From: Thermoanaerobaculia bacterium
GTDB taxonomy: Bacteria > Acidobacteriota > Thermoanaerobaculia > UBA5066 > Gp7-AA6
Reading direction: 5' to 3'
NCBI GenBank assembly: GCA_036395755.1
Contig: DASWCZ010000056.1
Location: 12,074 to 76,073, forward strand
Length of the DNA: 64,000 bases
The translations under genes were made by a program, and so were the position numbers. This document shows positions 10,568 through 29,397 of the stretch, in pieces. Numbering within the stretch: position 1 is the stretch's first letter; every line of letters starts with the position of its first letter. The notes below the pieces were generated by a model. That model had not been told where the DNA came from. It was given only the letters and a program-made list of their open reading frames with translations, and ran no database searches.

Positions 10568-10573
10568 GGAGAT

Positions 10574-10582: not shown

Positions 10583-10652
10583 CGGGGATCGTTGCGATTG
10601 TAACCGCGAGGACCGCGCGGAAACGTTCTCGGATCGCGCTCTGTCCTTTAGA

Positions 10653-12339: not shown

Positions 12340-12353
12340 GCGCGCCGACACGC

Positions 12354-13709: not shown

Positions 13710-13734
13710 CCGGCGGTTCTCCTCTGACGCGGCG

Positions 13735-15681: not shown

Positions 15682-16526
15682 CGGGCGGCAGAAGCGTTGC
15701 CATCCCGGGCAGCGAAGAGAAAGCCGATGTCGCGGTGAGCCGGGTTGGGGCGCGTTCGAACCCGGAAACCCCGTTCCTCGAGGAAGCGGACGAGGTCGTC
15801 GCGCCCGAAGCGTGTGACCCCCTCGTGGTACTCCATCGCGATGCGCCGGATGCGTTGCAACCCGACCTCGCTCGCCCCGAAGAGGATGTCGTACTCCGCG
15901 CCTTCACAGTCGATCTTGAGAAAATCGCATCGCTCGATTTTCGAGCGCTCGAAGACCTGGTCGAGGGTGATCGCTTCGACGGGAGCCGCGGACCCCTTCT
16001 CTCGCGACAGCGTGCGGGATCGCTCCGCGAGACCCGCCTTGGTCGCCATGTAGAGCCGGCCCGCGTCGGCCGCGACGGCCAGCGGAAACGTGCGTACGTT
16101 GGCGAGCCGGTTCAGCTCGAGGTTCGCGAGAAGGAGGGCGTAGGACTCGGCAAGCGGCTCGAACGCGTAGACGGTGGAATCGGGACATTCCCGCGCGGTC
16201 GAGATCGCGAAATCGCCCAGCCCGGCGCCCAGATCGACCACCGTCCACCCGTTCTCGACCGGCACGAACCCGCGCTCGTAATCCCGGTCCAGGCAGGTCT
16301 CCTTGATGATCCAGATGTCCATCCGGCCGCGCACGCGGAAGCGGCAGCCGGTCGAGAGCTCGATTCCGAACGGGCGGCGGCCGGGAAAACCCAGGAACGC
16401 CGAGAGAACCCGCAGAGGAGGGCGGATCTGTCGAAGGAGGGTCGGGATCGAGCCGACGTAGTAACGCCAGCGCGACAACGGACCGACTCTCGAAAACTCT
16501 CTCGCGTCCACGCTAGCGGAGCACAT
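15666..16526 (-). CDS. FkbM-family SAM-dependent methyltransferase
   Basis: VVDLGAGLGDFAIS, VYAFEP and DFLKIDCEGAEYDIL are typical FkbM motifs. The start overlaps the upstream gene end by 14 nt. Confidence 0.85.
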   Translation of the reverse strand: MCSASVDAREFSRVGPLSRWRYYVGSIPTLLRQIRPPLRVLSAFLGFPGRRPFGIELSTGCRFRVRGRMDIWIIKETCLDRDYERGFVPVENGWTVVDLGAGLGDFAISTARECPDSTVYAFEPLAESYALLLANLELNRLANVRTFPLAVAADAGRLYMATKAGLAERSRTLSREKGSAAPVEAITLDQVFERSKIERCDFLKIDCEGAEYDILFGASEVGLQRIRRIAMEYHEGVTRFGRDDLVRFLEERGFRVRTRPNPAHRDIGFLFAARDGNASAARQGTE

Positions 16527-19071
16527 CCGCGAGGTTCCAGAAGTAGAGGTGGTTCGTCTCGCGGTCCGACACCGCCACGCGGCCGAGCGGGTCCACCGTC
16601 ACGCCGGTCGGTCGTTTGAAGATGCCGTCCGGCCTCCAGGAGTGACGCAGGTTGCCCGCGGCGTCGTACTCGTTGACGCGTCCTTCCGTCGAGTCGGTCG
16701 CGAAAATCGATCCGGTGGGTCCGATCGCGAGGTAAGGCTCGGTGTAGAAGTCTTTCCACCCGAATACTGGGAACTCCCGCACGAACTTGCCTTCGGAGTC
16801 GAATACCTGGATCCGGTGATTGCCGGTGTCCGCGACGTAGACGTTGCCGGCGGCGTCGGCCGCGAGTCCGACCGGCTCGACGAACTGACCCGGACCGCTG
16901 CCGGGCGTGCCCCAATCCGAGACGCGCTTTCCTTCCTTGTCGAATCGGACCACGCGCTTGTTTCCGGTGTCGGCCACGTAGAGGAAGCCGCGCGAGAGAA
17001 GGACGGCGCGGGGTCCGAAGAATCCCCTCACGTCGTCGGTCCAGACCCCGAGCCACGAGCCGTCCGCCTTGAAGCGGGCGATCCGATGGTTCCAGGTGTC
17101 GGCGACGACCACCGTTCCGTCGGCGTCGACGGCGACGCCGCACGGCTCCTTCAACTGCCCGTCACCCGAACCCGAAGTCCCGATCGCCCGGATGAACTGG
17201 CCGTTCGGGTCGAACACCTGGATGCGGCCGTTCTTGGTGTCGGCGACGTACAGGTTGGCGCGGGAATCGGCAGCGAGCCCGCGCGGCTCGTTGAACTGCC
17301 CGTTACCGGACCCCGGCTCTCCGAAGACGCGCGCGGGCGCGACGACTGTCGCGGAGCCGCCCGCATAGTCGCGCGCCGAGGTGTTCTGCAGCGGAACGTT
17401 CAAAGGGGCGAGCGGCCCGGAGCTCGCGAGGTCCTTTCGCACGAAGAAGGTCGAATCCTGGGAGCCGATCGGGCTCCAGATCTCGTGGAAGAGCCACCAG
17501 CGGGCGAGATCGGTCAGCGTCGGCCGAGCGGGCCCGTTCGGGTCGAGCTTGTATTTCTCGGCGAACCACCACGCCCGGATCGGGACGCGTTTGGCGGTGT
17601 ACTGCGCTGCGAGCTGTTTCTCGAGCCCGCCCTGCGGGTCCCAGTCCGAGATGAGGATCGGCGTGGTCGCGTCGTCGATGCGCGTGACCCACTTCGTCGG
17701 CATGTCGCGGAAGTACCAGGTCAGCGGCCAGGAAGCCTCGCCGGCGACGGTGACGACCGCCTCTCCAGGCGCGACTTTCCGGCGCGCGACATCGACCTGC
17801 TCGAGCGCCCGCGTCAGATCGCGGGTCGTCTGCACGTATGCCAGGATCTCGGCGTGCTTCGGCTCGCGCTCCAGGTCATGCGCCCCGTAGCGAAAGCACG
17901 CCAGGAGCATGCCGCTCGCGTTCACGAGAGCGAGGACGAAGAGCACCGCCAGCGCGAGCCGGGGGCGCTTTTCCCGCCGGTCGCGCCAGAGCGACGCGAA
18001 TCCGACCGCTGCGAGGATGGTGATCGGGAGGAGAGCGTGCACGGTCAGCCAGGGGACCTTCTCGCGCGCCCAGGCATAGAGAAGAAGCGACCCGATCGCC
18101 CAGAAAAGCACGAAGCGCAGGAAGGGGGAGGCGCGCTTTCCCGAACGCCGGAAGGCGAAGCAGGCCGCGAAGACTATCGCGGTCTCGTAGTAGAGAAGTT
18201 GTGGAACGTAGTAGTACCAGGGTCCCGGAATGCGCGCGATGGAATGCTGGCCCATCCAGTACTTGATTGCCTTGGGTATCGCGAGCCAGTCCTTCGGATA
18301 CTTCCCGAACGCCGTGTACATCAGCGCCCAGATCGCCAGAAACACGAGCGCCGCCGTGGCGATCGGAAGGATGCGCGCGCGGACCCAGCCCGCGGTTGCG
18401 CGGATGGCCTCGGCGAGCGCGTCTTTCCGCCCCTTCGCCAGCGCGACGCGCTCGACGAGGGCCCAGGCGCCGTAGGCGACGAACAGCACGCCGGTCATGT
18501 AGGCGTTTTCCTTCGTCACGCCGGCGAGCGCGAAAGAAACTGCGGCGAGCGTGAGCCAGTGCGCCCGGTCGGTCTCCAGGAAACTCTGGAATGCCAGGAT
18601 CGTCCCGAGCGTGAACACGAGGGAGTACACGTCCTCCCGGATGAACCGCGAAAAGTACGTCAGGTGCGGCGAGATCAGGACGAGAGCCGCGTACGCCGCG
18701 GCCGCGCCGGTGCCGACCCAGCGGGCGAGCGGGATCGCTGCGGCAATCAGGAGTAGGCCGAAAATCGCCGGGAGGAGCCGGGCCGTCGTGTTCGACGCGC
18801 CCAGCAGCCGGTAGACGAGAGCATTCGCGTAGTAAAGGAACGGCCCGTGGTAGGCCGGGTCGTATCGCCAGTTGCCGTCCTTCATCAGCGTGTAGGACTG
18901 GTGCGCGTGAATCGATTCGTCGTGATGGAACGGCCGGTCGCCGAGAGACCAGAACCTCGTCGTCAGAGCCAGGAGCGCGATCAGGATCCCGGCGGCCGCG
19001 ACCGCCTGCCGTCGAGCTGGCGCGCGTTCCGGTCTCTCCTCGATCTTTTCGAGGGTCTGCGGCTCCGTCAC
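16513..19071 (-). CDS. TIGR03663-like GT-C membrane protein fused to a C-terminal NHL-repeat beta-propeller
   Basis: N-terminal ~540-aa polytopic region with RPFHHDESIHAHQSY...YDPAYHGPFLYY. C-terminal ~290 aa carry NHL repeats (LYVADTKNGRIQVFD, VVVADTWNHRIARF, LYVADTGNKRVVRFD, VYVADTGNHRIQVFD). GTG at 19071 overlaps the upstream stop as GTGA. Confidence 0.8.
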   Translation of the reverse strand: MTEPQTLEKIEERPERAPARRQAVAAAGILIALLALTTRFWSLGDRPFHHDESIHAHQSYTLMKDGNWRYDPAYHGPFLYYANALVYRLLGASNTTARLLPAIFGLLLIAAAIPLARWVGTGAAAAYAALVLISPHLTYFSRFIREDVYSLVFTLGTILAFQSFLETDRAHWLTLAAVSFALAGVTKENAYMTGVLFVAYGAWALVERVALAKGRKDALAEAIRATAGWVRARILPIATAALVFLAIWALMYTAFGKYPKDWLAIPKAIKYWMGQHSIARIPGPWYYYVPQLLYYETAIVFAACFAFRRSGKRASPFLRFVLFWAIGSLLLYAWAREKVPWLTVHALLPITILAAVGFASLWRDRREKRPRLALAVLFVLALVNASGMLLACFRYGAHDLEREPKHAEILAYVQTTRDLTRALEQVDVARRKVAPGEAVVTVAGEASWPLTWYFRDMPTKWVTRIDDATTPILISDWDPQGGLEKQLAAQYTAKRVPIRAWWFAEKYKLDPNGPARPTLTDLARWWLFHEIWSPIGSQDSTFFVRKDLASSGPLAPLNVPLQNTSARDYAGGSATVVAPARVFGEPGSGNGQFNEPRGLAADSRANLYVADTKNGRIQVFDPNGQFIRAIGTSGSGDGQLKEPCGVAVDADGTVVVADTWNHRIARFKADGSWLGVWTDDVRGFFGPRAVLLSRGFLYVADTGNKRVVRFDKEGKRVSDWGTPGSGPGQFVEPVGLAADAAGNVYVADTGNHRIQVFDSEGKFVREFPVFGWKDFYTEPYLAIGPTGSIFATDSTEGRVNEYDAAGNLRHSWRPDGIFKRPTGVTVDPLGRVAVSDRETNHLYFWNLADVLR

Positions 19072-20090
19072 GGCTTCTTGCTGCCGGGGAGAAGGATCTT
19101 CGACACCCCATTGCTGGCGGAGTTGACGACGTACACGATGCGCTGCTTGCCGTCCAGAGCGAGTCCCGTCGGGCGCGCGAACGGCTTGCCCGAATCGTCG
19201 GAGCTCCACGTGTTTCGAACGGTTCCTCCGCTCGCGAGCTCGAGGACGGTGTTCCCGTTGGGATTGGTCACGTAGATCTCTCCCGTCTCGCCGACCTCGA
19301 GGAACGGTTCGGCCGCCCCTTCCCAAGCGGCGACCGGCAGTGATTTCTGGAACCGGCCTTCTTTATCGAGAACTTCGATCCGCCGATTACCGATGTCCGC
19401 GACGTAGACCTGCCCGCTGGGTCCGACGCCGATGCCAACCGGGCTCGAGAACTCGCCGGGGCCGGCGCCGAGCTTGCCGATCGCCCGCTGTTCCCCGAGC
19501 GACCGGTTGAAGACCACCACTTTGTGGTTGCCCGTGTCCGTGATCCACACCTTTCCGTCGGGCGCCGCAGCGACTCCGCGCGGTCCGAAGAATCCGGCTG
19601 CGGTCGCCTTCCATTCCCCCTTCACCGTGTAGTACTGGATCCGTCCGTTCCAGGTGTCCGCGACGTAGAGATCTTCTCCGCGCGCCGCGACGCCGGCGGG
19701 CTGCCTCAGACTAAAGGTCCCGTTACCCGGATTTCCCCAGCCGCCGAGGTATCCGCCGTTGCCGTCGAAGACCCGGATGCGCGAGTTGCCGAAGTCTGCA
19801 ATCCACAGCCTTCCTTCTCCATCCAGGGTCGCGTCGCGCGGCTCGCTCATGCCCGCGAAAGGCGGTCGCTCCTGGACGGGCGCCGAGCGGATCGACGGCT
19901 CCGTTGGCTCGCCGGGGTGCTTCGCCGCCGCCGGAGCCGCGCCCTCCGGCTTTGCCGGCGCTTCCTTTCGCCGGCACGCGATCGGAACGACGAGGAAAAG
20001 TAGGGCGAGCGCGACGCCGACTCCGGGGTGGCGGAAGCGTTTCGCGGGGGAGGGCTCCGTCCGGACGTGCGACGAGGATGAATCGGTCAC
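19068..20090 (-). CDS. NHL-repeat beta-propeller lipoprotein
   Basis: GTG at 20090 overlaps the upstream stop as GTGA. Lipoprotein signal ...GVGVALALLFLVVPIAC, a Pro/Ala linker, then a 265-aa NHL domain paralogous to the C-terminus of the upstream giant protein. Confidence 0.85.
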   Translation of the reverse strand: MTDSSSSHVRTEPSPAKRFRHPGVGVALALLFLVVPIACRRKEAPAKPEGAAPAAAKHPGEPTEPSIRSAPVQERPPFAGMSEPRDATLDGEGRLWIADFGNSRIRVFDGNGGYLGGWGNPGNGTFSLRQPAGVAARGEDLYVADTWNGRIQYYTVKGEWKATAAGFFGPRGVAAAPDGKVWITDTGNHKVVVFNRSLGEQRAIGKLGAGPGEFSSPVGIGVGPSGQVYVADIGNRRIEVLDKEGRFQKSLPVAAWEGAAEPFLEVGETGEIYVTNPNGNTVLELASGGTVRNTWSSDDSGKPFARPTGLALDGKQRIVYVVNSASNGVSKILLPGSKKP

Positions 20091-20884
20091 GGCGCTTTCC
20101 TTTCCGCAAGATTCAGCCGGGAGACGGAGTTGTTGCCCGAATCGATGACATACAGAATATCTCGCCGACGATCGAGAGCGAGGCCGGTCGGCTTCGCGAA
20201 CTTGCGGCCCTGGTCGTCCGCGCTCCACGTGCGCTCGACCGAGCCCGAAGAGTCGAACGCGCGGACCGCGCCGGTGGCGGGGTCAGCGGCATAGATCGTT
20301 TCGTCGCGGCCGATTTCGATGTGCGGTTCGACCGGTCCTTGCCATCCGGGCACGTCGAAGGCGCGCTGGAACTGGCCCGACGCGTCCAGGATCACGACCC
20401 GGTGATTCCCGACGTCGGCGACGTACACCGAGCCCGACGGGCCGACGGCGATCCCGACGGGACTCGAGAACTCTCCCGGGCCCGATCCCTTCTTTCCGAC
20501 GACCTGCCGGTTCTGCAGGACGGCGTCGTAAGTCACGAGCTGATGGTTCCCGGTGTCGGTCACCCAGACCTTTCCCTCCGCGGAAATCGCGACGCCGCGC
20601 GGCCCGTAGAGGCCCGCCGCCGAACCTTTCGGCTCACCGGCGAGAGTGAAGGACTGGAGACGGCCGTTCCAGGTATCGGCGATGTACAGGTCCTCTCCCC
20701 GGATCGCCACGGCGCAGGGCTCCCGCAGTCCGAAGGTGCCGCTGCCGCGGCCGCCCCATCCGCCGAGGTATCCGCCTCCTCCGTCGAAGATCCGCAGCCG
20801 CGAGTTGCCGAAGTCCGCGATCCAGATCCTGCCCTTTCCGTCCACGTCGCCGTCCCGGGGCTCCCGCATGCCGGAGAAGGGGGG
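19068..20884 (-). repeat. tandem duplication of a 798-nt NHL-domain coding module (19068..19865 and 20087..20884)
   Basis: My gapless hand alignment of the two 265-aa translations finds 153 of 265 positions identical. Long identical runs include WIADFGNSR, GEDLY.ADTWNGR, GPGEFSSPVGI.VGPSG.VYVAD and PTGLALD. Confidence 0.85.
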
Positions 20885-23800
20885 GCGTCCCTGCTCCGCC
20901 GTCTCCGCGATCGCGGGCGCCTCCTCTTGCTCGACGACCTCCGCGGCGCCCGCTGCCACCGGGACGTTCTCCTTCGCGGGCACGATGACGTCTTGCGAGT
21001 CGCCCCCGATGACCCGGTAGATCTTGACCTCCGGGTTCTCGTAAGCGCGCTCGAAGAGGTCCGTCGCGCGGTCGAACTTGCGCAGGCCTTCCGCGGGATA
21101 AGTCTTGCGCTCGAGCCAGCCGACGTAGACGTAACCGACGTGATATCGCCGCAGCAGGTGCTCGATGGGCGCGGCTTCCCGGCTGGAATAGATCCGCTCG
21201 ACCGCCTCGCGCCTCTCGACGACCTCCGTTTCTGGGTTGCCGCGCTGCTTGACGTGGTGCTCCCATCCGAGCACGGTCGGAAGCCCCGTCAGCATCGAGA
21301 TGCGGCTGAAGTCCTGGTACGGATCGCCGTGGGCTTCCAGGAGCACGGGCGTCCCCCGGATCGTCCGTCGAAGCCAGAGGACCGCGCGGTATTCACCGGG
21401 CCTCGTCTCCTCGAGGTATCGGAGCCCGTCGAGTGTGGGGCCCGAATACGCCGCGAAGTGGTTGCTGACCGCGCCGCGCGCGGCCGTGACGGTCGTGAAG
21501 AGAGCCGCGATGGCGAGGAGGAAGAGAACGGCGCGCGGAGGAAAACGCCAGCGCCCGTAGACGCCGCGTCGGTCCTTCGGCCGGAAGACGAGCGCGGCGG
21601 CCGCGACCGCGAAGAGGAGCCAGGCCTCCAGGTAGAGCTTGAAGATCGTGTTCATCCGGTCGGAGATGTAGACCTTCTGCGTGAAGAGGATCAGAAAGAA
21701 GGCAGCGGCGACGAAGCCGCAGGCGAGTCGCTCGTCCGGATCGGTCGCGCGGTCGGCGGCCGCGGCGAAAAAGAGCAGGACGCCCGCGCAGGCGAAGACT
21801 TCCACCGAGAGAAATCCGAGCAGGGCGAGCAGGCCGCCGACGGCCGCCACGAGGATGAGGCGCATTCGTCTCTCGAGGCCCTGCTCCGCCATCCGGTCGG
21901 AGACGAAGCCGAGCAGCCACGCAAACGCGAGGAAGAAGAAGAGACCGAACACGGTCACGACGTCGACGCCTTTCGCGCCGGGCTCCTGTTCCCAGCCGAA
22001 CCCCGGGCTTCCACCCCCGTGCACCCAGAGAGGAGCGGCGGTCGCCCAGGCGGCCGCCACGGTCGTGAGCACGCCCGGCGCCATTCGCGCGAGGTGCGCC
22101 GGCGCGAATCGGCCGGCGGAGGCAGTCACCAGGAAGACGATTCCGCACAGGCCGGCGAGTAGCGGCGCGTCCCACGCGTTCGTCAGGGCCTGCGCCGCGG
22201 CGGCGAAGCCCAGGATCGCGCCCGATGCGATCCGCGAGATCGGCCTCGCGGGCGGGCTGGAGTTCACGCGGACGAAGTGGAGGGCGGCGGCGCCGACGAG
22301 CAGAAAGAGCGGCATCGCGAGGACGTGCGCGTGCAGGTCCGCGAAGACGAGGCTCCAGAACGGGTACTCGTTGATGGTGTCCTTGATGATGCGGGAGGTC
22401 GCCCAGAAATAGTTCCAGTCGAGGGCTCGATGATTGAGCAGCCACTCGCGCAGGCCCGAGAGATTCCCGAGGACCACGGCCAGCCCTGCGCCGGCGACGC
22501 CGGCTCGCACCGTTCCCGTCCAGTTGCGCAGGAGGGTGAAGGAGCCCTGCAGCATCAGCCCGCCGAGCAGCCCGAAGGCGAGATTGAACGTGAAGCGGGT
22601 AGAGAGCCCGGTTAAGAGCGTCAGGAAAGCGATCATCTGCTGCCCGAACGCGTAGTAGCCGAGCGGAGCGCCGGCGAACCAGGGATCGGAGGCGGGGAGA
22701 GTCCGGGTCCGCACGAGGATGTTCAGGATCGAGAAGTCCATCGGCTTCTCTCCCCAGTAGATCTCGGGGTTGAACGCGCGGATGCCGAGGAAGAGGAGGA
22801 ACCCGAGAGCAAACGCCGCCTCGCCCGCGACCACGAGGCGCCGGCGCTCGCGGAAGAAGTCGATAATCAACCGCCGCCGCGCGAAGAAGAGGAGCGCAGA
22901 GGGAAGCGCCGCGAGCGCCAGACACGTCCACGCCGCCCCGCGTCCGTTGGATAGGATCCGAAGCTGGACGAGCACGGCGAAAAGGAAAGTCGTTCCGACG
23001 ATTCCCAGGATTCTGGAGACACCGGCGCCGCGGTCCGCCAGGCGCGGGAAGAACGCGTGCGCGAGAGGAAACGCGACCGCTCCCACCAGAAGGATCCCCA
23101 GGTACCACAGGATTGCGGCGCCGAAGGATCCGATCGCGATCTCCCGGGTTCCCGATCCCACCAATGTCTTGTCGAAGTCCGCGCGGTGGGGAGGGTAGAT
23201 CGGCGACGTCACGGTCCGCTTCGACCGCGGCCACTTCTCCCAGTCTCCGAGCGTCGGCGGCGTCTGCGGCATCGAGGCGAGAAGGATCTGCGTCACCCGC
23301 CCGGGGGAGAACTGTTTGTTCTTGCGGAAGAGGACGACCCGCGGATGGTCGTAAACCGTGAACTGCTCCTCGGCGCGGTCGTCCGGGACCTTCAACGGCC
23401 CGAGCGTCGGGTAGGAATTGAAGTCGGCGGCGAGGTCGAAGCCCAGCCGTCCCTCGAAGAGCGCGCTGTAGTAGGCGCGCGACATCGGAAAAACTGCGGG
23501 GATCCGGGTCAGGTTCACGTAGACGCGGTTGCTGGTGACCGCAATCCAGTCCGATTCCTTCAGGACCTTGACGACGTCTTCCACCTTTCTCGGCGAGTCC
23601 GGATCGAAGAGGGTCAGCTGCGGTCCGTTGTAGGCGCCCATGTCGTATCCCGGCAGAGGAAGCGGCAGGGCATCGTCCCAGGACTCGTTCGCGAAGCGCG
23701 CTGGCGGCGGCACGTTCTCGTAGATCCACTTCGCCGCGGCCACGCGGGGATGCGGACGGCGGTAGATCGACGTGAAAGCAAGGCCCCAGAGAAACGTTCC

Positions 23801-25018
23801 GGCGACCGCGATCGCCGGAAGGAAACGCAGGACCCGGGCGCTCTGACGGCGCGCGCTTCGCGCGCGCGCGGCGAGGTCGCCGAGGAACAGCGTGGCGAGC
23901 ACCGCGAGCGCGGGGTACGCCGGGTAGAAATAGCGGATCGACTTGACGATCGAGAGGCCGTGGTAGAGCAGGAGAAACACGGCGTGCGCCACGAGCGGCA
24001 CGAGAGCCCGCCGCGCCCCCTTTCTCGCGACGAGAACGGCCCAGCCGAGCGCGGCGAGCGCCGGGAGCGCGAAGAACGGTCCGGCGCCCCAGAAAACCAT
24101 GTTTCCGATCGGGAAAAGGATCGTGCGTCCCGCCCATTGGAACGCGGGCGGGAATCCGGAGACGCTCGAGGAGAGCTCCGCCAGCCGCTTCATGTCCGCC
24201 AGGTAGCGCGGATCCAGCCGGAAGGAGAAGAATCCCGAGCCGGCGAACGCGTAAGGCAGGCCGAAACGCACCGCGACCGCCGCCGCCGCCAGGCAGAGGG
24301 CGAAGCGGCCCGCCATCCCGGCGATCCGGGGGCCGGGACTCCTCTCCTCTCGCGGCGTGTCGCGTCGAAAAGCGCCGATCAGGAGTCCCAGGCCGACCGG
24401 CACGAAGAGCGCGAGCGCGGTCACTTTGCAGGAGGCCGCGAAGCCGAGGGCGACACCGGTCAGGACGACTTCCAGGGGGCGGGAACGACCCTGCGCGAGG
24501 TGGACCGCGCCTAAGAGCGTCGCGGTAGAGAAGGCGGTCAGGAACGTGTCGACCGCCCAGAAGTGCGAGAGCTGAAGTCCGAGCGGACAGAATGCCAGAA
24601 GGGCCGCCGCCGCGAGCGCCAGCCGGCGATCTTTGGAGAACCGCCGGGCGAGAAGGTAGGCGAGCCACACCGAGGCTAAGTCCGCGAAGGCGGAGAGCAC
24701 CCGGCCGACGAGATAGGCGCCGCCGTAGCCGCTCTTTCCGAGGAGGCCGGCGACGGCTTTCGTCACGAAGATTGGCAGAGTTCCGTAGACGAACGAGTCG
24801 TGGCCGCGGTTGTAGGGGTTGAGCGATGACCGCGCCGAATCGAAGTACGCGGCCGGGCTCTTCGGGAACACGAGCTTCTCCTCGACCATCGAGATGAAGC
24901 GCTCGTCCGGGTGGAGATGGTGCCCCGCGTCCCAGTCGAGACCGGAGAGACGCAGGACGGCCCCAGCGGCGATCAGGACGAAAAAGAGCTGGCGGGCGCG
25001 GTGCCGGCTCAGGCGCAA
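20087..25018 (-). CDS. 1643-aa three-module envelope protein: GT-C (PMT_2/ArnT-like) + DUF2298 ('YYY', TIGR03662-like) + NHL beta-propeller
   Basis: TTG start at 25018 (MRLSRHRARQLFFVLIAAGAVLRL). First periplasmic loop has HPDERF. The central region has DTINEYPFWSLVFADLHAHVLAMPLFLL, typical of DUF2298. The last 265 aa are NHL repeats. Coding bias is continuous and there are no internal stops. Confidence 0.85.
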   Translation of the reverse strand: MRLSRHRARQLFFVLIAAGAVLRLSGLDWDAGHHLHPDERFISMVEEKLVFPKSPAAYFDSARSSLNPYNRGHDSFVYGTLPIFVTKAVAGLLGKSGYGGAYLVGRVLSAFADLASVWLAYLLARRFSKDRRLALAAAALLAFCPLGLQLSHFWAVDTFLTAFSTATLLGAVHLAQGRSRPLEVVLTGVALGFAASCKVTALALFVPVGLGLLIGAFRRDTPREERSPGPRIAGMAGRFALCLAAAAVAVRFGLPYAFAGSGFFSFRLDPRYLADMKRLAELSSSVSGFPPAFQWAGRTILFPIGNMVFWGAGPFFALPALAALGWAVLVARKGARRALVPLVAHAVFLLLYHGLSIVKSIRYFYPAYPALAVLATLFLGDLAARARSARRQSARVLRFLPAIAVAGTFLWGLAFTSIYRRPHPRVAAAKWIYENVPPPARFANESWDDALPLPLPGYDMGAYNGPQLTLFDPDSPRKVEDVVKVLKESDWIAVTSNRVYVNLTRIPAVFPMSRAYYSALFEGRLGFDLAADFNSYPTLGPLKVPDDRAEEQFTVYDHPRVVLFRKNKQFSPGRVTQILLASMPQTPPTLGDWEKWPRSKRTVTSPIYPPHRADFDKTLVGSGTREIAIGSFGAAILWYLGILLVGAVAFPLAHAFFPRLADRGAGVSRILGIVGTTFLFAVLVQLRILSNGRGAAWTCLALAALPSALLFFARRRLIIDFFRERRRLVVAGEAAFALGFLLFLGIRAFNPEIYWGEKPMDFSILNILVRTRTLPASDPWFAGAPLGYYAFGQQMIAFLTLLTGLSTRFTFNLAFGLLGGLMLQGSFTLLRNWTGTVRAGVAGAGLAVVLGNLSGLREWLLNHRALDWNYFWATSRIIKDTINEYPFWSLVFADLHAHVLAMPLFLLVGAAALHFVRVNSSPPARPISRIASGAILGFAAAAQALTNAWDAPLLAGLCGIVFLVTASAGRFAPAHLARMAPGVLTTVAAAWATAAPLWVHGGGSPGFGWEQEPGAKGVDVVTVFGLFFFLAFAWLLGFVSDRMAEQGLERRMRLILVAAVGGLLALLGFLSVEVFACAGVLLFFAAAADRATDPDERLACGFVAAAFFLILFTQKVYISDRMNTIFKLYLEAWLLFAVAAAALVFRPKDRRGVYGRWRFPPRAVLFLLAIAALFTTVTAARGAVSNHFAAYSGPTLDGLRYLEETRPGEYRAVLWLRRTIRGTPVLLEAHGDPYQDFSRISMLTGLPTVLGWEHHVKQRGNPETEVVERREAVERIYSSREAAPIEHLLRRYHVGYVYVGWLERKTYPAEGLRKFDRATDLFERAYENPEVKIYRVIGGDSQDVIVPAKENVPVAAGAAEVVEQEEAPAIAETAEQGRPPFSGMREPRDGDVDGKGRIWIADFGNSRLRIFDGGGGYLGGWGGRGSGTFGLREPCAVAIRGEDLYIADTWNGRLQSFTLAGEPKGSAAGLYGPRGVAISAEGKVWVTDTGNHQLVTYDAVLQNRQVVGKKGSGPGEFSSPVGIAVGPSGSVYVADVGNHRVVILDASGQFQRAFDVPGWQGPVEPHIEIGRDETIYAADPATGAVRAFDSSGSVERTWSADDQGRKFAKPTGLALDRRRDILYVIDSGNNSVSRLNLAERKAP

Positions 25019-25157
25019 ACTGTCCCTTCACTCCGGGAGCGGATGTCCGAACCTCCTCTTCTCGAACGGATTCCCGGAGGACGGGCGTCGCCATTCGACC
25101 GTCGAGAACGGGCCGATTCTACAGGAGCGATGCGCGCGCGCCTTCGCGCGGTGGCCC

Positions 25158-25991
25158 TCACGCCGGCTTGCGCGCCTTCACGGAGAGGATCACGGCGCTC
25201 CGGCCCTCCTCGCGCGGGCGATTCCAGGAGTCGATCGCATTCAGCAGCGAGCGTGCGACGTGGAGCGGCCTCCAGGAGCGGCCCGGGGCGTCCCCATAAC
25301 GGAATCGGTCCGCTTGAGGCAGCACTCCCGATTCGACCAGCCGCATGCCGAGTCCGTACACCAGATTATGAGCGAACGGAAAACAGTGGTGCACGAACTG
25401 CCGGGGGTCCTCGGCGACGAGATCGGCTCGCCTGACGAGATCGATCAGCTTTTCGCGCGTGTAGAGACGCACGTGGTTCGTCCAGATTCCTCCGAAGAAT
25501 CCGCTGCGGATCGGCGCAAGTCCGAGACGTTCCAGCGACCAGTTGATCGGATCCCATAGGAACGGGTAGTCGTGATTGGGGACCGTGATCGCGATCGTTC
25601 CGCCCGGCCGGACGACGCGCTTGACCTCGAGCAGTCCCGGAAGATCTTCGGGAAGGTGCTCCAGGACTTCCGACAGGATGACCTTGTCGAACGCCCCGTC
25701 CGCGTAGGGGAGGCGGGTGACGCTGCCGGCCGCGAGCGACACGCGGGAAGAGATCTCGGCTCGCGCGCGGCGGAGCCTCGGCAGATCGTTGTCGATGCCG
25801 GTCAACCGGCAGGGCGCGAGCTCGTCGATGACCTTCAGGAACCACCCGAGACCGCAGCCGCAGTCGAGAACGCGCTCGCCCGGCCGGGGCTGGAGGTACT
25901 CGAGCACGATCCGCAGGCGGTGTTTGGCCGCCATGTCCGCTTCGTTCGCGAGCATCCGCTGGAGCTTCGCGGCATCGTCGGGCGTGCTCAC
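25158..25991 (-). CDS. class I SAM-dependent methyltransferase
   Basis: VLDCGCGLGW (motif I), FDKVILSEVLEHL and RVVRPGGTIAITVP. GTG at 25991 overlaps the GT4 stop as GTGA. The rest of the 702-aa ORF is Arg/Pro-rich artefact. Confidence 0.85.
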   Translation of the reverse strand: MSTPDDAAKLQRMLANEADMAAKHRLRIVLEYLQPRPGERVLDCGCGLGWFLKVIDELAPCRLTGIDNDLPRLRRARAEISSRVSLAAGSVTRLPYADGAFDKVILSEVLEHLPEDLPGLLEVKRVVRPGGTIAITVPNHDYPFLWDPINWSLERLGLAPIRSGFFGGIWTNHVRLYTREKLIDLVRRADLVAEDPRQFVHHCFPFAHNLVYGLGMRLVESGVLPQADRFRYGDAPGRSWRPLHVARSLLNAIDSWNRPREEGRSAVILSVKARKPA

Positions 25992-27145
25992 CACCGCGGT
26001 CGGAAGGCCCGCGCCGGAGAAGGCGTCTCCAGGCGCTCCAGCACGCCCTCGTACTCCGACACGCACCGTTTCGGGTCGAACAGGTCTTCGATTGCCTGGC
26101 GCGGCCGCACGTATTTTTCCCTTTCGTCGAGCACGGCGAGGATGCCGGCCGCCAGGGCCGCCGGGTCGGCCGGCTCGACCGTCAGTCCCATGCCGGTCTC
26201 GCGGACCGGGACCCGCGCGCCGGGGATGTCCGTCGCCACGACGGGCGTTCCGCACATCATCGCCTCCGGCTGCACCAGCGCAAGGCAGTCGGTCCGGCTC
26301 GGCAGGACGAAGACGTCGAGCATCGAGTAGAAATTCGCGAGCTTCTGCGGGTCGGAGACCAGCCCGAGCATCGTTACATGGGGCCGCACCTTCTCCAGGA
26401 GCGCCGCGCACCGCGAGAAGAAATCCTCGTACCCCATCCGGGTCTCTCCCGCGTAGACGAAGTGCGCGTCGGGCGCCTTCGCGAGAACATCGGGAATCGC
26501 CTGCAGGAGGTAGTCGAACCCCTTTTCCTCGACCCAGCGGCCCGCGAACCCCACCAGGCGCCGACCCGAGAGGTTGAGCTCCGCCTTCCACCGCGAGGAG
26601 TCTTCGGAGCGAGGCACCGGAATCACCACCGGCGGCAGGATCGCGTCGGTCTTCTGAAGGTACGGCTGGAGGAAAGGGGAATGGCTCGCGTAGTCGGTGC
26701 TGTACGCAACGATCCGGGTCGCCTGGGAGAGCGCGCGACGCATCAGGAAGGTCACCGCGCGCTCGACCGCTTGGTTGAGTAGTCCCGCCGGCATCGTCAG
26801 GTCGCCGTGGTGTGTCAGGACGACCGGCTTCTTCAGGAGGCGCCCGAACAGTGTGACGAGAGGAGCTTCCAGAATCGGGGTGTGGACCTGCACGACGTCG
26901 GCCCGGCGCATCTCGCGCCACAACGCCGCCGGAAACGACGGCATCACCACGCCCCGGCTCACGCGGCCCATGACCGGGAGGCGGACGACGCGGACACTCT
27001 CGATCGTTTCCTCGAGAGCGAGCTTCGGATCGTGACGGGAGGTCAGGACCGTCACGGAGTGGCCTCCGGCCGCGAGCCCTTCCGCCAGACGCTTCGCGTA
27101 CGCGGTCAGGCCCGTCCAGTGGGGGTGGTAGTACGTCAGGATCAT
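25988..27145 (-). CDS. GT4 glycosyltransferase
   Basis: MILTYYHPHWTGLTAYAKRLAEGLAAGGHSVTVLT and the E-x7-E region PSRTDCLALVQPEAMMCGTPVVATD. ATG at 27145. Confidence 0.88.
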   Translation of the reverse strand: MILTYYHPHWTGLTAYAKRLAEGLAAGGHSVTVLTSRHDPKLALEETIESVRVVRLPVMGRVSRGVVMPSFPAALWREMRRADVVQVHTPILEAPLVTLFGRLLKKPVVLTHHGDLTMPAGLLNQAVERAVTFLMRRALSQATRIVAYSTDYASHSPFLQPYLQKTDAILPPVVIPVPRSEDSSRWKAELNLSGRRLVGFAGRWVEEKGFDYLLQAIPDVLAKAPDAHFVYAGETRMGYEDFFSRCAALLEKVRPHVTMLGLVSDPQKLANFYSMLDVFVLPSRTDCLALVQPEAMMCGTPVVATDIPGARVPVRETGMGLTVEPADPAALAAGILAVLDEREKYVRPRQAIEDLFDPKRCVSEYEGVLERLETPSPARAFRPRW

Positions 27146-27192
27146 CAAGATCCGGCGGCGGGACGTCGCATCCCGCAGCGGGGCGGCAGCGC

Positions 27193-29397
27193 TCACTTCT
27201 GCGGCCGGACGCGGTAGATCGCGGTCGCGCCGCCCCGGGCGGGCTCCAGGAACGGGAACGCCGCAACCCGCGGCGCCTCCGGATAAGCGCTGCGCTCGAG
27301 GTCTCCCACGATCACGTGAGTCACGTGATAACGGTCGAGGATTTGGTGCGCGGCCCGGGGGTCCGACGCCGAGTAGAACTTGCGCACCTCCTCCAATCGG
27401 GCCATCACCTCGGGGGCGTTCGACCGCCACAGCCCTTCGTGGTTCGCCCAGCCCATCACGGTGGGGATGCCAGTGTGGGAGGAGATCCGGGCGTACTCCG
27501 TGTACGGGTTCCCCGAGGCTTCCATCACGACCGACCTGCTCGGCGCGTTCTTTACGAGCCACTCGATCGCCTGGAGGTCCCCGGGGTTTCGCCGTCTGAG
27601 CGCCCGCCGCGCATCGAGGGAGAAGGCTCCGTCGCGCTGGCGCAGGCGGGAGACCGCGGCGGTCATCGGGTAGAGCAGAGCGGCGAACACCGCCAGAACG
27701 AGGACGAAAACGAGCGACCGCCGCGGCACCTTCGTGGCCCGCCACGCGCGGTCCACGAACACGACGGCGCCGATTCCCAGCAGAGGCCAGGCCTGGTGAT
27801 AGAACTTGAAGATCGTGTTCATACGGTGCAGCTGCTCGCCGTAGGAGTCCTTGAAGTAGACGACCTCGCATCCGGCGATCATCCCGAGCGCGAGAAGACA
27901 GAGAAAGGCGGCGAACAGGACGCCGCGGTCCGGCTCGCGCCGGAGGGAACGCCACGCGGCGCGGCCGGCGAGAAAAACGAGAAAAAGGATCGGGGCGAGC
28001 GCGGGGGCCTTCCTCGCGAACGCGAGACCGAGGGAAACGACCGCCGCTGCCGCGAGAAGAAAGTCGCGCCAACGCCGTCCTTCCTCGGTGTCTTCGGGAG
28101 CGGAAAGAAGAAGTCCCGTCGCCGCGACGGCGAACAGGATCCCCCAGACGCCCAGGAATTCGAGGATGCCGGACGTCGCGTGGGTCTTTCCGATTCCGTT
28201 GTAGGGCAGATGGTAGGAGGTCCGATAGGGCTGTGTCAGGAAGAGCGCGAGGAGGACCGCTCCGGCGCCGGTCAACGCACCCGACAGGGCCGTTCCGAGC
28301 CGCGGCAGCCCCTCGCCGCGCGTCGTGCGGGCCGCGCCGGCAAAGACGAGCAGCATCGCGATCGCCGGGGCGTTCCAGAGGTTCGCTCCGATTGCCGCCG
28401 CCGCGACGAGCGCAACGAGAAGGAACGGTGCCCATCGCGAGAGGAAAGACCCGGCGGCGGGTTTTGACTCTGGACCCTGATCTCTCGACTCCGGCAATCC
28501 GGCTTCGATCCATCGATCCGCAACCGCGAAAGTCGCCAGGAAGAAGGGGAAGGCGAGCAGGTGGGGGTGCAGGTCGGCGTGAAAGAACGTGAAGAACGGG
28601 AACTCGTTGATCGTGTCGCCCGAGCCGATGACGCGCGAGGCGTGGAAGTAGTCGAAATCCCTGGCGAACGGTGTCGCCCAGGCCTCGAACGCGCCGGCCA
28701 GATTTCCCGCGAAAACGCTCGCGAAGCCGGCCCCGATCGCCGCCGCAGTCCGTCCCCGGGAAAGGCGAAACCCGAGACACGCCGCCGCGGCGAAGGAGTA
28801 CCCGGCGAAGGTCGCGATCGCGAGGTTGTAGGCGACGAATGGAGTGACCCCGGCCGCTTTCGCGACCGTGGCCGCCAGCAGGTAGCCCCAGTAGTAGTAG
28901 TTGATCGTGTTCCCCGCCATCCACGGATCGGCGGGGGGCATGTCGGGCCATCGCGTGAGCGAGTTGAAGAACGCGAGATCCATGAACTTCTCGGCTCCGA
29001 GGATCTCGGGGACCGCGGCCCGGATCACGAGGAAGATCGCGGCCGGCGCCCAGAAGAAGAGCGCGCCCCGGTTTTCCTCCGGGCCCCAGAAGCGACCGGT
29101 CTCACGGCCGGCCCTGCGGCGGGAGAAGAAGGACGCGCCGGCGAGAGCCGCGACCGACAGAAGAATCGTGCCGCGCGAAAAGCCGAACGGGAGCACCAGA
29201 GACAGGGCCCACGCGAGCCAGCCGGCGAGGACGAGGCCGACCGGCCGCGAGAGGAGCGCGGCGTCGCGCCGGTTGGCGAAGAAGAGGCGAAGCGCCGGCA
29301 AGACCGCGAGACCGAGGATCTCGACGGCCAGGGCCCAGGCCAAGATGTTCCGCACTGAGAAGAGTTTATAGTCCAAGTCCGCGGTCGCAGGGGGCAC
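27193..29397 (-). CDS. DUF2298 ('YYY', TIGR03662-like) polytopic membrane protein
   Basis: 734 aa with DTINEFPFFTFFHADLHPHLLAFPFFLATF and a YYYWGY motif. It is paralogous to the central module of the 1643-aa protein. GTG start at 29397, with an alternative GTG at 29355. Confidence 0.82.
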   Translation of the reverse strand: MPPATADLDYKLFSVRNILAWALAVEILGLAVLPALRLFFANRRDAALLSRPVGLVLAGWLAWALSLVLPFGFSRGTILLSVAALAGASFFSRRRAGRETGRFWGPEENRGALFFWAPAAIFLVIRAAVPEILGAEKFMDLAFFNSLTRWPDMPPADPWMAGNTINYYYWGYLLAATVAKAAGVTPFVAYNLAIATFAGYSFAAAACLGFRLSRGRTAAAIGAGFASVFAGNLAGAFEAWATPFARDFDYFHASRVIGSGDTINEFPFFTFFHADLHPHLLAFPFFLATFAVADRWIEAGLPESRDQGPESKPAAGSFLSRWAPFLLVALVAAAAIGANLWNAPAIAMLLVFAGAARTTRGEGLPRLGTALSGALTGAGAVLLALFLTQPYRTSYHLPYNGIGKTHATSGILEFLGVWGILFAVAATGLLLSAPEDTEEGRRWRDFLLAAAAVVSLGLAFARKAPALAPILFLVFLAGRAAWRSLRREPDRGVLFAAFLCLLALGMIAGCEVVYFKDSYGEQLHRMNTIFKFYHQAWPLLGIGAVVFVDRAWRATKVPRRSLVFVLVLAVFAALLYPMTAAVSRLRQRDGAFSLDARRALRRRNPGDLQAIEWLVKNAPSRSVVMEASGNPYTEYARISSHTGIPTVMGWANHEGLWRSNAPEVMARLEEVRKFYSASDPRAAHQILDRYHVTHVIVGDLERSAYPEAPRVAAFPFLEPARGGATAIYRVRPQK

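What the first reader, a model, noticed from the sequence alone, without database searches (positions are those of the whole stretch)
16513..29397. Co-occurrence of TIGR03662-like ('YYY'/DUF2298) and TIGR03663-like proteins in one operon
From memory of the family descriptions, TIGR03663 proteins occur sporadically and almost always in genomes, often neighbourhoods, that also encode TIGR03662 (Chlor_Arch_YYY) proteins. These are mainly in Archaea and Chloroflexi, and their function is unknown.

Here two YYY-type modules (27193..29397 and the centre of 20087..25018) and one TIGR03663-like protein (16513..19071) sit in one minus-strand operon. A GT4, two methyltransferases and NHL propellers are in the same operon. 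That gives an unusually rich context for this uncharacterised pair, in what appears to be a diderm bacterium.
Basis: partly seen in the sequence, partly recalled or inferred. Interest (0 to 1): 0.62.

Follow-up and report, generated by a model that had tools for sequence, protein, structure and literature searches.

The report
Paired membrane glycosyltransferase operon in Acidobacteriota
This conserved operon of an uncultured Acidobacteriota bacterium encodes two matched pairs of large membrane sugar-transferase-like modules that most likely decorate an unknown target outside the inner membrane; the gene pairing was already on record, so this is a new example, not a new kind of system.

Summary
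Both YYY modules pass the TIGR03662 cut-off of 300 bits (474 and 458 bits). The third protein passes the TIGR03663 cut-off of 126 bits (340 bits). All three lie in one tightly packed minus-strand gene chain with a GT4, two methyltransferases and three NHL propellers. The genome is an Acidobacteriota MAG of class Thermoanaerobaculia.

The partnership is real but one-way. In 151 genomes of the class, 71 have both families, 2 have one and 78 have neither. In 301 genomes of the phylum, all 20 YYY genomes carry TIGR03663, nearly always next to the YYY gene. However, 34 genomes have TIGR03663 without YYY.

The statement 'function unknown' is out of date for TIGR03663, which is now named after Haloarcula Agl23, a protein with published flippase activity. 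YYY remains unstudied. Its AlphaFold model (pLDDT 90) is a GT-C fold, with its conserved acidic and histidine residues facing the periplasm.

The operon holds two pairs of a PMT_2-type module with a YYY module. One pair is split into two genes and one is fused in the 1643-aa protein. This fusion recurs widely in public proteins.

Most likely this is a periplasmic glycosylation machine that uses polyprenyl-phosphate sugars. Its target is unknown. I class it as a new member of a known kind, of moderate interest.

The parts
27193..29397 (-). YYY1: stand-alone TIGR03662/DUF2298 protein of 734 aa (a database gene call gives 720 aa). It has a GT-C fold with about 16 membrane helices and a periplasmic C-terminal globular domain.
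   Evidence: TIGR03662 474 bits and PF10060 306 bits. AF2 model: pLDDT 89.7, pTM 0.93. The 13 Foldseek hits with E-values below 0.01 all have probability 1.00 and are all GT-C enzymes (DPY19, AglB, AftA, STT3, AftD, ArnT). The C-terminal domain matches the AglB C-terminal domain 3vu0. Invariant E136, K137, M139, D140, E265, D275, H277, H279, D517, N527, K531, E626 and H653 in 55 sequences.
25988..27145 (-). GT4 (GT-B fold) cytoplasmic glycosyltransferase.
   Evidence: PF13692 107 bits, PF00534 105 bits, PF13579 76 bits. Present after YYY1 in 47 of 53 related loci. ATG at 27145, 47 nt after the YYY1 stop.
25158..25994 (-). Class I SAM-dependent methyltransferase (Methyltransf_11 type).
   Evidence: PF08241 67 bits. 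Its GTG start overlaps or abuts the GT4 stop. A homologue is present in only 20 of 53 related loci, so it is a variable accessory.
20087..25018 (-). 1643-aa fusion of three parts: a PMT/PMT_2-type GT-C module with a DE motif (aa 1-631), a YYY/TIGR03662 module (aa 632-1336) and an NHL beta-propeller (about aa 1450-1640).
   Evidence: TIGR03662 458 bits, PMT 48 bits, NHL 106 bits. The N module has invariant H34-L-H-P-D38-E39-R40 in 23 sequences. Its best NCBIfam hit is TIGR03663, but weak at 25 bits. The fused YYY is only 30-32% identical to YYY1. The fusion is present in 46-49 of 53 loci.
19068..20090 (-). Free NHL beta-propeller protein with a lipoprotein-like signal sequence (...LLFLVVPIAC). 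It is a duplicate of the fusion's NHL domain.
   Evidence: NHL 113 bits. Sequence and signal peptide read. GTGA overlap with the fusion stop. The extra 1 kb between the fusion and the TIGR03663 gene is seen only in the window's own genus (G000, G068).
16513..19071 (-). TIGR03663 (Agl23-like) protein of 852 aa: an ArnT/PMT_2-like GT-C membrane domain, an alpha/beta linker domain and a C-terminal NHL propeller.
   Evidence: TIGR03663 340 bits, PMT_2 41 bits, NHL 134 bits. AF2 model: pLDDT 68.7, pTM 0.72. Foldseek: ArnT 5f15 with E 9e-10 and TM 0.51, then ALG9/12, STT3/PglB, Pmt4, AftD and Emb. Invariant R39, R46, D51-E52 and H75-G76-P77 in 18 sequences.
15666..16526 (-). FkbM-family methyltransferase, the last gene of the chain.
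   Evidence: TIGR01444 109 bits against a cut-off of 37.7; PF05050 73 bits. It overlaps the TIGR03663 gene's end by 14 nt. Found in only 6 of 53 loci within reach.
10653..13709 (+). Likely donor-supply module, convergent with the operon. It holds a UbiA enzyme of the decaprenyl-phosphate phosphoribosyltransferase type, a GT2 of the polyprenyl-phosphate hexose synthase type, and a eukaryote-type UDP-galactopyranose mutase.
   Evidence: UbiA: NF008977 182 bits, below its cut-off of 234. GT2: best hit is haloarchaeal dolichyl-phosphate hexose transferase NF041391, 78 bits, far below its cut-off. Mutase: E 7e-93 to PDB 4dsg and 1e-88 to 3uka over the full length. Its orthologues lie 1-9 kb from the TIGR03663 gene in family f1, and 40%-identical homologues lie 1.2 kb away in family f16. 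The mutase is absent from family f2, so it is not part of the universal core.

Best explanation
The stretch is a conserved envelope-glycosylation operon of Thermoanaerobaculia. Its core is two matched pairs of GT-C-fold membrane modules. Each pair joins a PMT_2/ArnT-like module, which carries a D-E motif just after its first membrane helix, with a YYY/DUF2298 module.

One pair is split into two genes: the stand-alone YYY1 and the TIGR03663/Agl23-like protein. The other pair is fused in the 1643-aa protein.

Proposed mechanism:
1. Sugars are loaded onto polyprenyl phosphate at the cytoplasmic face by GT2 and UbiA-type enzymes encoded nearby. A UDP-galactopyranose mutase would supply galactofuranose. 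The GT4 and the methyltransferases would build or modify a primer.
2. The lipid-linked sugar reaches the periplasmic face. The PMT_2-type partner either flips or presents it, as published for Agl23, or catalyses a transfer of its own.
3. The YYY module transfers the sugar to an acceptor held by the periplasmic NHL propellers.

Shown here: family membership, GT-C folds, periplasm-facing conserved residues, conserved gene order, one-way co-occurrence and recurrent fusion. Inferred: the donor, the acceptor, catalysis, physical pairing, and which module does what.
For: Membership above curated cut-offs.

Folds:
- The YYY1 model is of high confidence. All 13 hits with E-values below 0.01 are polyprenyl-phosphate-sugar-dependent GT-C enzymes.
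- The TIGR03663 membrane domain is closest to ArnT.

Topology: this combines the model's helices with positive-inside counting on the sequence. It places every invariant acidic or histidine residue of YYY1 in a periplasmic loop or the C-terminal domain, and D51-E52 of the TIGR03663 protein in the first periplasmic loop.

Pairing:
- All 20 YYY genomes in a 301-genome phylum sample have TIGR03663. The two genes are adjacent or within 4 kb in all 9 YYY genomes from five families outside the class.
- In families f2, f8, f11 and f16 of the class, the TIGR03663 gene directly follows the stand-alone YYY gene, with 45-310 nt between the domain matches.
- About a third of the best 150 YYY representatives carry the YYY domain after an N-terminal part of about 600 aa. 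All 7 sampled have the architecture PMT_2 + DUF2298.

Gene order YYY1-GT4-fusion-TIGR03663 is kept in about 47 of 53 related loci.

All three NHL domains come after a final outward-going helix or a signal peptide.

Donor-supply genes are nearby and linked in two families.

Agl23 precedent: PMC11182771.
Against: - No biochemical datum exists for any YYY protein. The literature search found only two papers that mention DUF2298, both in passing.
- TM-scores to solved GT-C structures are modest: 0.34-0.51 for YYY1 and about 0.5 for the TIGR03663 domain. That second model is only of medium confidence.
- No sequence-profile link to any solved structure or to Pfam STT3.
- The direct profile comparison of the fusion's N module with TIGR03663 is weak (E 0.055). 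'Matched pairs' therefore rests on shared PMT_2 membership and motif, not on orthology.
- Within the class, presence is all-or-none by family. The striking 2x2 table (Fisher p 4e-41) therefore reflects few evolutionary events.
- The donor-supply genes are not universal: the mutase is absent from family f2.
- A Pseudobutyrivibrio plasmid carries a DUF2298 gene with no TIGR03663 on the plasmid. Its chromosome was not searched.
- No acceptor, polymerase or ligase is recognisable.
- Co-transcription is untested.
Confidence: 0.6

Rival explanations
1. Both module types are true transferases that act as an obligate heterodimer, as in Pmt1-Pmt2 or EmbA-EmbB. The TIGR03663-type partner has no flippase role here. 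The flipping activity reported for Agl23 would be a side activity of a lipid-sugar-binding GT-C fold.
For: The TIGR03663 protein and the fusion's N module keep the D-E pair after the first helix. From my knowledge of PMT enzymes, this pair is needed for catalysis (invariant). The fold is closest to the transferase ArnT. Recurrent covalent fusion of PMT_2 and YYY modules fits a fixed 1:1 complex. Each partner carries its own NHL propeller.
Against: Purified Agl23 translocated a lipid-linked oligosaccharide in liposomes and rescued yeast rft1 deletion (PMC11182771). 34 of 54 Acidobacteriota genomes have TIGR03663 without YYY, so it does not need YYY. No complex model could be computed.
Confidence: 0.25
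2. YYY modules are not glycosyltransferases. They would use the GT-C scaffold for another job, such as handling or recycling the lipid carrier, ligating or polymerising a preformed glycan, or acting as a non-catalytic scaffold like PIG-U.
For: There is no experimental activity for the family. There is no sequence-level link to any characterised GT-C family. Three extra N-terminal helices precede the GT-C core. From my own knowledge, GT-C-fold proteins without transferase activity exist.
Against: Strict conservation of a cluster of periplasm-facing acidic and histidine residues (E136, D140, E265, D275, H277, H279, D517) is typical of metal-dependent GT-C active sites. All significant structural neighbours are active transferases.
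Confidence: 0.1
3. The genes are merely neighbours kept together by descent in one clade, with no shared pathway.
For: Presence or absence within the class follows family boundaries. The unrelated LigD genes next door are almost as well conserved in position, 43 of 53 loci, so synteny alone is weak evidence.
Against: Adjacency recurs in five further Acidobacteriota families outside the class. It also recurs as gene fusions in many unrelated representatives. The scan's own notes report the pair in other phyla (unchecked). Start/stop overlaps link the genes.
Confidence: 0.05

Closest known systems
Agl22/Agl23 of Haloarcula hispanica (Lu et al. 2020, Mol Microbiol 114:762, cited in PMC11182771; Chen et al. 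2024, PMC11182771)
   Same: The 16513..19071 protein is a full-length TIGR03663 member at 340 bits and keeps the family's invariant DE, HGP and Arg residues. A GT2 whose best match is the haloarchaeal dolichyl-phosphate hexose transferase model lies 4 kb away. The system would likewise use a polyprenyl-phosphate monosaccharide outside the cytoplasmic membrane.
   Different: The host is a bacterium with an outer membrane, so the carrier would be a bacterial polyprenol (inferred). The protein carries a C-terminal NHL propeller. It is locked into an operon with two YYY modules. Whether it flips, transfers or does both is untested. The GT2 match is far below its cut-off (78 against 375 bits).
GT-C(A) glycosyltransferases with solved structures: ArnT, PMT1/2/4, DPY19, AglB/STT3/PglB, AftA/AftD/Emb
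   Same: Both partners share the predicted fold. Both have an acidic motif in the first periplasmic loop, a periplasmic C-terminal domain and an expected lipid-phosphate-sugar donor. Several of these enzymes also work as homo- or heterodimers (Pmt1-Pmt2, EmbA-EmbB).
   Different: YYY has no detectable sequence relationship to them. It has about 16 helices, three of them ahead of the GT-C core. It lacks a WWDYG motif, MIR domains and a carbohydrate-binding module. NHL propellers take the place of those accessory domains.
Three-component periplasmic glycosylation systems (GtrA/GtrB/GtrC type; ArnC/ArnE-F/ArnT)
   Same: The logic is the same: a GT2 loads a sugar on polyprenyl phosphate, a membrane protein brings it across, and a GT-C enzyme transfers it to a periplasmic acceptor.
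   Different: No small GtrA or ArnE/F-type flippase was seen in the operon. The candidate flippase is itself a GT-C fold protein. There are four GT-C modules rather than one, plus a GT4 and methyltransferases. The acceptor is unknown.

Membership tests
TIGR03662 (Chlor_Arch_YYY) / Pfam PF10060 DUF2298 | Score at or above the curated cut-off (300.25 bits; Pfam gathering score 27.8), covering the whole model | tested here: met
   YYY1 scores 474.0 bits over model positions 4-726 of 727. The fusion scores 457.7 bits over positions 2-726. PF10060 scores are 306 and 265 bits.
TIGR03662 (Chlor_Arch_YYY) / Pfam PF10060 DUF2298 | The name-giving YYY tripeptide | tested here: met
   YYY1 has INYYYWGY, with Y167 and Y168 nearly invariant. 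The fused module has GYYAFG, so two of the three Tyr.
TIGR03663 (Agl23 family) | Score at or above the curated cut-off of 126.25 bits | tested here: met
   340.4 bits over model positions 2-430 of 435. It is the only match above the cut-off in the genome. The fusion's N module scores only 22-25 bits and is not a member.
TIGR03663 (Agl23 family) | Invariant N-terminal DE dipeptide, HGP tripeptide and two Arg (family description, recalled from memory) | tested here: met
   R39, R46, D51-E52 and H75-G76-P77 are invariant in 18 orthologues.
TIGR03663 (Agl23 family) | Flippase activity on lipid-linked sugars, as shown for Haloarcula Agl23 | not testable with these tools
   It needs a proteoliposome assay or genetics. 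The only basis here is homology (PMC11182771).
TIGR03662-TIGR03663 partnership (as in the TIGRFAMs descriptions) | Co-occurrence in the genome and in the neighbourhood | tested here: met
   Class: 71 genomes with both, 2 with one, 78 with neither; 53 of 72 within 10 kb on the same strand. Phylum: 20 of 20 YYY genomes have TIGR03663, but 34 of 54 TIGR03663 genomes lack YYY. The link is real but one-way.
GT-C fold glycosyltransferase superfamily | Polytopic GT-C fold with conserved acidic residues in periplasm-facing loops | tested here: met
   Foldseek probability 1.00 to DPY19, AglB, AftA, STT3, AftD and ArnT for YYY1, and to ArnT, ALG9/12, PglB and Pmt4 for the TIGR03663 domain. Conserved E136/D140 and D51/E52 sit in outward loops. 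TM-scores are only 0.34-0.54.
GT-C fold glycosyltransferase superfamily | Glycosyl transfer from a polyprenyl-phosphate-linked donor | not testable with these tools
STT3/AglB/PglB oligosaccharyltransferases | Pfam STT3 match and a WWDYG motif in the C-terminal domain | tested here: not met
   There is no Pfam hit other than DUF2298 even at E <= 10, and no PDB sequence hit. The C-terminal domain has GWANHEG, not WWDYG. Only a structural resemblance exists, including to the AglB C-terminal domain.
Protein O-mannosyltransferases (PMT, GT39) | PMT/PMT_2 domain together with luminal MIR domains | tested here: not met
   The PMT/PMT_2 N-terminal region matches above the gathering score in the TIGR03663 protein and in the fusion's N module. 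No MIR domain is found, and NHL propellers are present instead.

The most novel reading that the evidence does not exclude
YYY/DUF2298 modules are a large, unstudied class of extracytoplasmic glycosyltransferase that works only when coupled 1:1 to an Agl23/PMT_2-type GT-C module. That partner would be the long-sought translocator of polyprenyl-phosphate monosaccharides, handing the flipped donor directly to its consuming transferase. The natural fusions and the one-way genomic dependency would be the footprint of this flip-and-transfer channel.
Probability: 0.2. Interest if true: 0.75.

Novelty: new member of a known kind. Interest (0 to 1): 0.42.

Why it matters
YYY/DUF2298 is a very large family: 9164 clusters at 50% identity, 4661 of them at E <= 1e-30. 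No member has been studied. How polyprenyl- or dolichyl-phosphate monosaccharides cross the membrane is still an open question; a 2026 paper still calls the Dol-P-Man translocator unidentified (PMC12992685).

Three results make a concrete hypothesis testable, namely that flipping and transfer are coupled in a two-module GT-C unit:
- YYY always travels with an Agl23-type or PMT_2-type module, either adjacent or fused.
- The reverse is not true.
- Both partners have GT-C folds with outward-facing catalytic-type residues.

For Acidobacteriota, the operon points to an undescribed surface glycan, possibly one containing galactofuranose. The specific co-occurrence was already recorded in the family descriptions, and this scan has met it in many genomes. 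The window adds a well-conserved bacterial example, not a new principle.

Tried and rejected
- Sequence searches of the PDB found no membrane-domain relatives. I tried YYY1 alone, the TIGR03663 protein alone (only its NHL domain matched), the YYY profile, the TIGR03663 profile and the fusion N-module profile. The last gave only marginal hits: PIG-M at E 0.13 and Pmt2 at E 0.2.
- A Pfam scan at E <= 10 of YYY1 and of its C-terminal domain, looking for STT3-type domains, found nothing beyond DUF2298.
- Profile-profile comparison of the fusion's N module with TIGR03663 was weak (E 0.055). I therefore do not call the N module a TIGR03663 member.
- The one scan of genome contigs returned only Acidobacteriota loci. 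The 'of' option of the genome search accepts only G handles. No survey of Archaea, Chloroflexota or other phyla could be made. The only outside evidence is the control genomes, where Haloferax volcanii and Methanosarcina acetivorans match both families above the cut-offs and 12 others match neither.
- The plasmid search gave one bacterial hit, Pseudobutyrivibrio pNP95, with DUF2298 in a polysaccharide cluster and no TIGR03663 on the plasmid. It also gave one partial haloarchaeal hit. Neither is informative about the partnership, because the chromosomes were not searched.
- The AglS paper (PMC3510580) is not held. I could not check whether Haloferax AglS belongs to either family.
- YYY1 has a T-I-N-E motif (T262-E265). 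It resembles the TIXE motif that I recall from loop EL5 of STT3/AglB. I treat this as an untested lead only.
- The promoter and terminator scan gave nothing usable in this high-GC DNA.


Full report
**What is there**

The window is 67% GC. It lies on contig 56 of a 3.25-Mb MAG that is 97.6% complete. Reading frames were chosen by third-position GC content. The result is one minus-strand gene chain:
- YYY1, 29397..27193
- GT4, 27145..25988
- class I methyltransferase, 25994..25158
- a 1643-aa fusion protein, 25018..20087
- a free NHL propeller protein, 20090..19068
- a TIGR03663 protein with an NHL propeller, 19071..16513
- an FkbM methyltransferase, 16526..15666

The junctions are tight. There are GTGA overlaps at GT4/methyltransferase, fusion/NHL protein and NHL protein/TIGR03663 protein. 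TIGR03663/FkbM overlap by 14 nt, and YYY1/GT4 are 47 nt apart. A single 139-nt gap lies before the fusion gene. The chain ends tail to tail with a plus-strand gene, and it starts 24-65 nt from a divergent LigD gene.

**Check of the observation**

All three HMM claims hold. YYY1 scores 474 bits and the fusion 458 bits (aa 632-1336) against the TIGR03662 cut-off of 300. The 16513..19071 protein scores 340 bits against the TIGR03663 cut-off of 126. The genome has no other match above either cut-off. The GT4, both methyltransferases and three NHL propellers are confirmed. The free NHL protein has a lipoprotein-like signal sequence and is a close copy of the fusion's propeller.

The organism belongs to Acidobacteriota, class Thermoanaerobaculia. 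This follows from the names attached to homologues and from all 80 related loci. 'Diderm' is therefore reasonable.

**The partnership, surveyed**

In 151 genomes of the class, TIGR03662 is found in 72 and TIGR03663 in 72. Both occur in 71, one alone in 2, and neither in 78. Presence is all-or-none by taxonomic family: f1, f2, f8, f11 and f16 have the pair and the other families lack it. The very small Fisher p-value therefore counts few evolutionary events.

Position is more telling. TIGR03663 lies on the same strand within 10 kb of a YYY domain in 53 of 72 genomes, and within 500 nt in 34. Most of these genomes carry two YYY matches: one inside an open frame of about 700 aa and one inside a frame of 1600-2000 aa. 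In f2, f8, f11 and f16 the TIGR03663 gene directly follows the stand-alone YYY gene. In the window's own family it follows the fusion gene.

In a 301-genome sample of the phylum, 20 genomes have YYY and all 20 have TIGR03663. In the 9 YYY genomes outside the class, from five further families, the two genes are adjacent or within 4 kb. However, 34 genomes have TIGR03663 without YYY. So the link is real and one-way: YYY comes with TIGR03663, and not the reverse.

I could not extend the survey to other phyla. The control genomes agree with the link. Haloferax volcanii and Methanosarcina acetivorans match both families above the cut-offs, and the 12 other controls match neither above them.

**Conserved core**

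A tblastn comparison of the window's proteins with 53 related loci of at least 19 kb shows the order YYY1-GT4-fusion-TIGR03663(+NHL) in about 47 loci. The class I methyltransferase is found in 20 loci and FkbM in 6, so both are variable. The free NHL protein appears only in the window's own genus. LigD is also syntenic, in 43 of 53 loci. This is a reminder that synteny alone is weak evidence within one clade.

**What the proteins are**

YYY1 gave a confident AlphaFold model (pLDDT 89.7, pTM 0.93). The 13 Foldseek hits with E-values below 0.01 all have probability 1.00, and all are GT-C enzymes: DPY19 (E 7e-8), AglB, AftA (target TM-score 0.51), STT3, AftD and ArnT. The C-terminal globular domain separately matches the C-terminal domain of an AglB. 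Sequence methods see none of this.

I combined the model's helices with the positions of Arg/Lys-rich loops. This gives about 16 membrane helices, with both the N- and C-terminus outside the cytoplasm. Every invariant acidic or histidine residue found in the 55-sequence alignment lies in a periplasmic loop, at a periplasmic helix end, or in the C-terminal domain. These residues are E136, D140, E265, D275, H277, H279, D517, E626 and H653. That pattern is typical of a GT-C active site. The two YYY modules of the window are only 30-32% identical, so they are old paralogues.

The membrane domain of the TIGR03663 protein gave a medium-confidence model (pLDDT 68.7, pTM 0.72). Its best match is ArnT (E 9e-10, TM 0.51). 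ALG9/ALG12, STT3/PglB, Pmt4, AftD and Emb follow. It keeps R39, R46, D51-E52 and H75-G76-P77 invariant. The DE pair sits in the first outward loop, as in PMT-type enzymes.

The fusion's N-terminal 630 residues match Pfam PMT and PMT_2 (49 and 47 bits). They have an invariant H-L-H-P-D-E-R in the same place. Their best NCBIfam hit is TIGR03663, but at only 25 bits, and the profile-profile comparison is weak. This N module is a PMT_2-type module of the same general kind, not a family member.

**Two pairs, one split and one fused**

The operon thus contains two sets of a PMT_2-type DE module with a YYY module. One is a single polypeptide. The other is two genes, which in most other families are immediate neighbours.

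The fusion is not a local oddity. A search with the YYY profile against 1.84 billion representative proteins found 9164 clusters (4661 at E <= 1e-30). About a third of the best 150 have the YYY domain after an N-terminal part of about 600 aa. All seven that I sampled are PMT_2 + DUF2298.

Recurrent fusion, adjacency and one-way dependency are the classic signs of two parts that act together.

**Known biology that bears on it**

NCBIfam now names TIGR03663 after Agl23 of Haloarcula hispanica. [quoted passage not shown] 2020, as cited and summarised in PMC11182771). Purified Agl23 translocated a lipid-linked oligosaccharide in liposomes and rescued yeast rft1 deletion (PMC11182771).

No paper on YYY/DUF2298 function was found. 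The translocator of dolichyl-phosphate mannose is still described as unidentified (PMC12992685).

**Donor supply**

A plus-strand gene set lies convergent with the operon. It encodes:
- a UbiA enzyme whose best match is decaprenyl-phosphate phosphoribosyltransferase (182 bits, below the cut-offs);
- a GT2 whose best match is the haloarchaeal dolichyl-phosphate hexose transferase model (78 bits, far below the cut-off);
- a flavoenzyme that is clearly a eukaryote-type UDP-galactopyranose mutase (E 7e-93 to 4dsg).

Orthologues of the mutase lie 1-9 kb from the TIGR03663 gene throughout family f1. 40%-identical homologues lie 1.2 kb from it in family f16. Family f2 has none. This module is a plausible lineage-specific donor supply and hints at galactofuranose. 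It is not part of the universal core.

**Most likely mechanism (confidence about 0.6)**

The operon is a periplasmic glycosylation system fed by polyprenyl-phosphate sugars. Within each pair, the PMT_2/Agl23-type module brings or presents the lipid-linked sugar at the outer face, or adds a first sugar. The YYY module then transfers sugar to an acceptor bound by the NHL propellers. The GT4 and the methyltransferases act on the cytoplasmic side.

Folds, topology, conservation, co-occurrence and fusion are shown here. The donor, the acceptor, catalysis and physical pairing are inferred.

The main rival (0.25) is that both modules are transferases in a Pmt1-Pmt2-like heterodimer with no flippase role. 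The conserved DE motif and the ArnT-like fold favour it. The published Agl23 assay and the many YYY-less TIGR03663 genomes argue against it. Less likely readings are that YYY is a non-catalytic or otherwise-purposed GT-C scaffold (0.1), or that the genes are neighbours only by descent (0.05).

**Comparison and novelty**

The proteins are bona fide members of TIGR03662/DUF2298 and TIGR03663. They are not STT3/AglB or PMT family members: the WWDYG motif, the STT3 domain and MIR domains are all absent.

The co-occurrence itself is written into the family descriptions. This scan's own unchecked notes report the pair in at least 36 genomes of several phyla, including a 'one split, one fused' arrangement and travelling NHL propellers. 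I reached the split/fused reading before seeing those notes.

I therefore class the finding as a new member of a known kind. The work here adds four things:
- the one-way dependency;
- the breadth of the PMT_2+YYY fusion;
- a confident GT-C model for YYY with an outward-facing conserved site;
- the link to a galactofuranose and polyprenyl-phosphate donor module in two families.

**Limits**

No cross-phylum survey was possible. Complex prediction and structural superposition could not be run. The TIGR03663 model is of medium confidence only. All functional statements rest on homology and context.

Noticed in passing
window 12354..13709 (+): A 451-aa flavoenzyme is a full-length match to eukaryote-type UDP-galactopyranose mutases (Trypanosoma cruzi 4dsg at E 7e-93, Aspergillus fumigatus 3uka at E 1e-88). 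Pfam and NCBIfam see only a generic amine-oxidase or 'hypothetical' family. Orthologues sit 1-9 kb from the TIGR03663 gene across family f1, and 40%-identical homologues sit 1.2 kb away in family f16.
   Followed up: partly
window 10653..12339 (+): Two genes lie directly upstream of the mutase. One is a UbiA enzyme nearest to decaprenyl-phosphate phosphoribosyltransferase (182 bits, under the cut-offs). The other is a GT2 nearest to the haloarchaeal dolichyl-phosphate hexose transferase model (78 bits). Together they look like a second route to polyprenyl-phosphate-linked sugars.
   Followed up: partly
window 13507..15681 (+): A polytopic membrane protein of about 650-724 aa has no significant match in Pfam or NCBIfam. 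It has a D-H-A-E-K stretch in a loop that looks like a GT-C first-loop motif. It ends tail to tail with the FkbM gene, overlapping it by 16 nt.
   Followed up: no
window 19068..20090 (-): The free NHL propeller protein carries a lipoprotein-like signal (…LLFLVVPIAC). It is a near copy of the fusion's C-terminal propeller. The extra gene is seen only in the window's own genus (G000, G068), so it is a recent duplication.
   Followed up: partly
window 29421..31989 (+): Three separate LigD-type genes lie divergent from YYY1, with only about 24-65 nt between the starts. The polymerase domain is confirmed by Pfam. The neighbourhood LigD-YYY1 is kept in 43 of 53 related loci.
   Followed up: partly
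window 32013..36187 (+): This is a second sugar-modification module: a PIG-V-like GT-C protein, a class I methyltransferase, a DegT aminotransferase (406 bits), a GT2 of the polyprenyl-phosphate sugar synthase type, and a small cupin. It is found beside the LigD genes in 6-11 of 53 related loci.
   Followed up: partly
window 37779..39725 (-): A 648-aa protein has a C-terminal Peptidase_S74 domain (endosialidase chaperone, 33 bits) with no phage genes noticed around it.
   Followed up: no
L089 (Pseudobutyrivibrio xylanivorans plasmid pNP95, NZ_CP043029.1) 8926..11181: A DUF2298 protein of a Gram-positive rumen bacterium sits on a plasmid in a polysaccharide cluster. The cluster includes an O-antigen ligase family protein, GT2s, a DegT aminotransferase and a sugar epimerase/dehydratase. 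No TIGR03663 match occurs anywhere on the plasmid.
   Followed up: partly
window 28603..28614 (YYY1 residues 262-265): The nearly invariant T-I-N-E in a flexible periplasmic loop of YYY1 resembles the TIXE motif that I recall from loop EL5 of STT3/AglB. Together with the AglB-like C-terminal domain, this hints at a distant tie to oligosaccharyltransferases.
   Followed up: no
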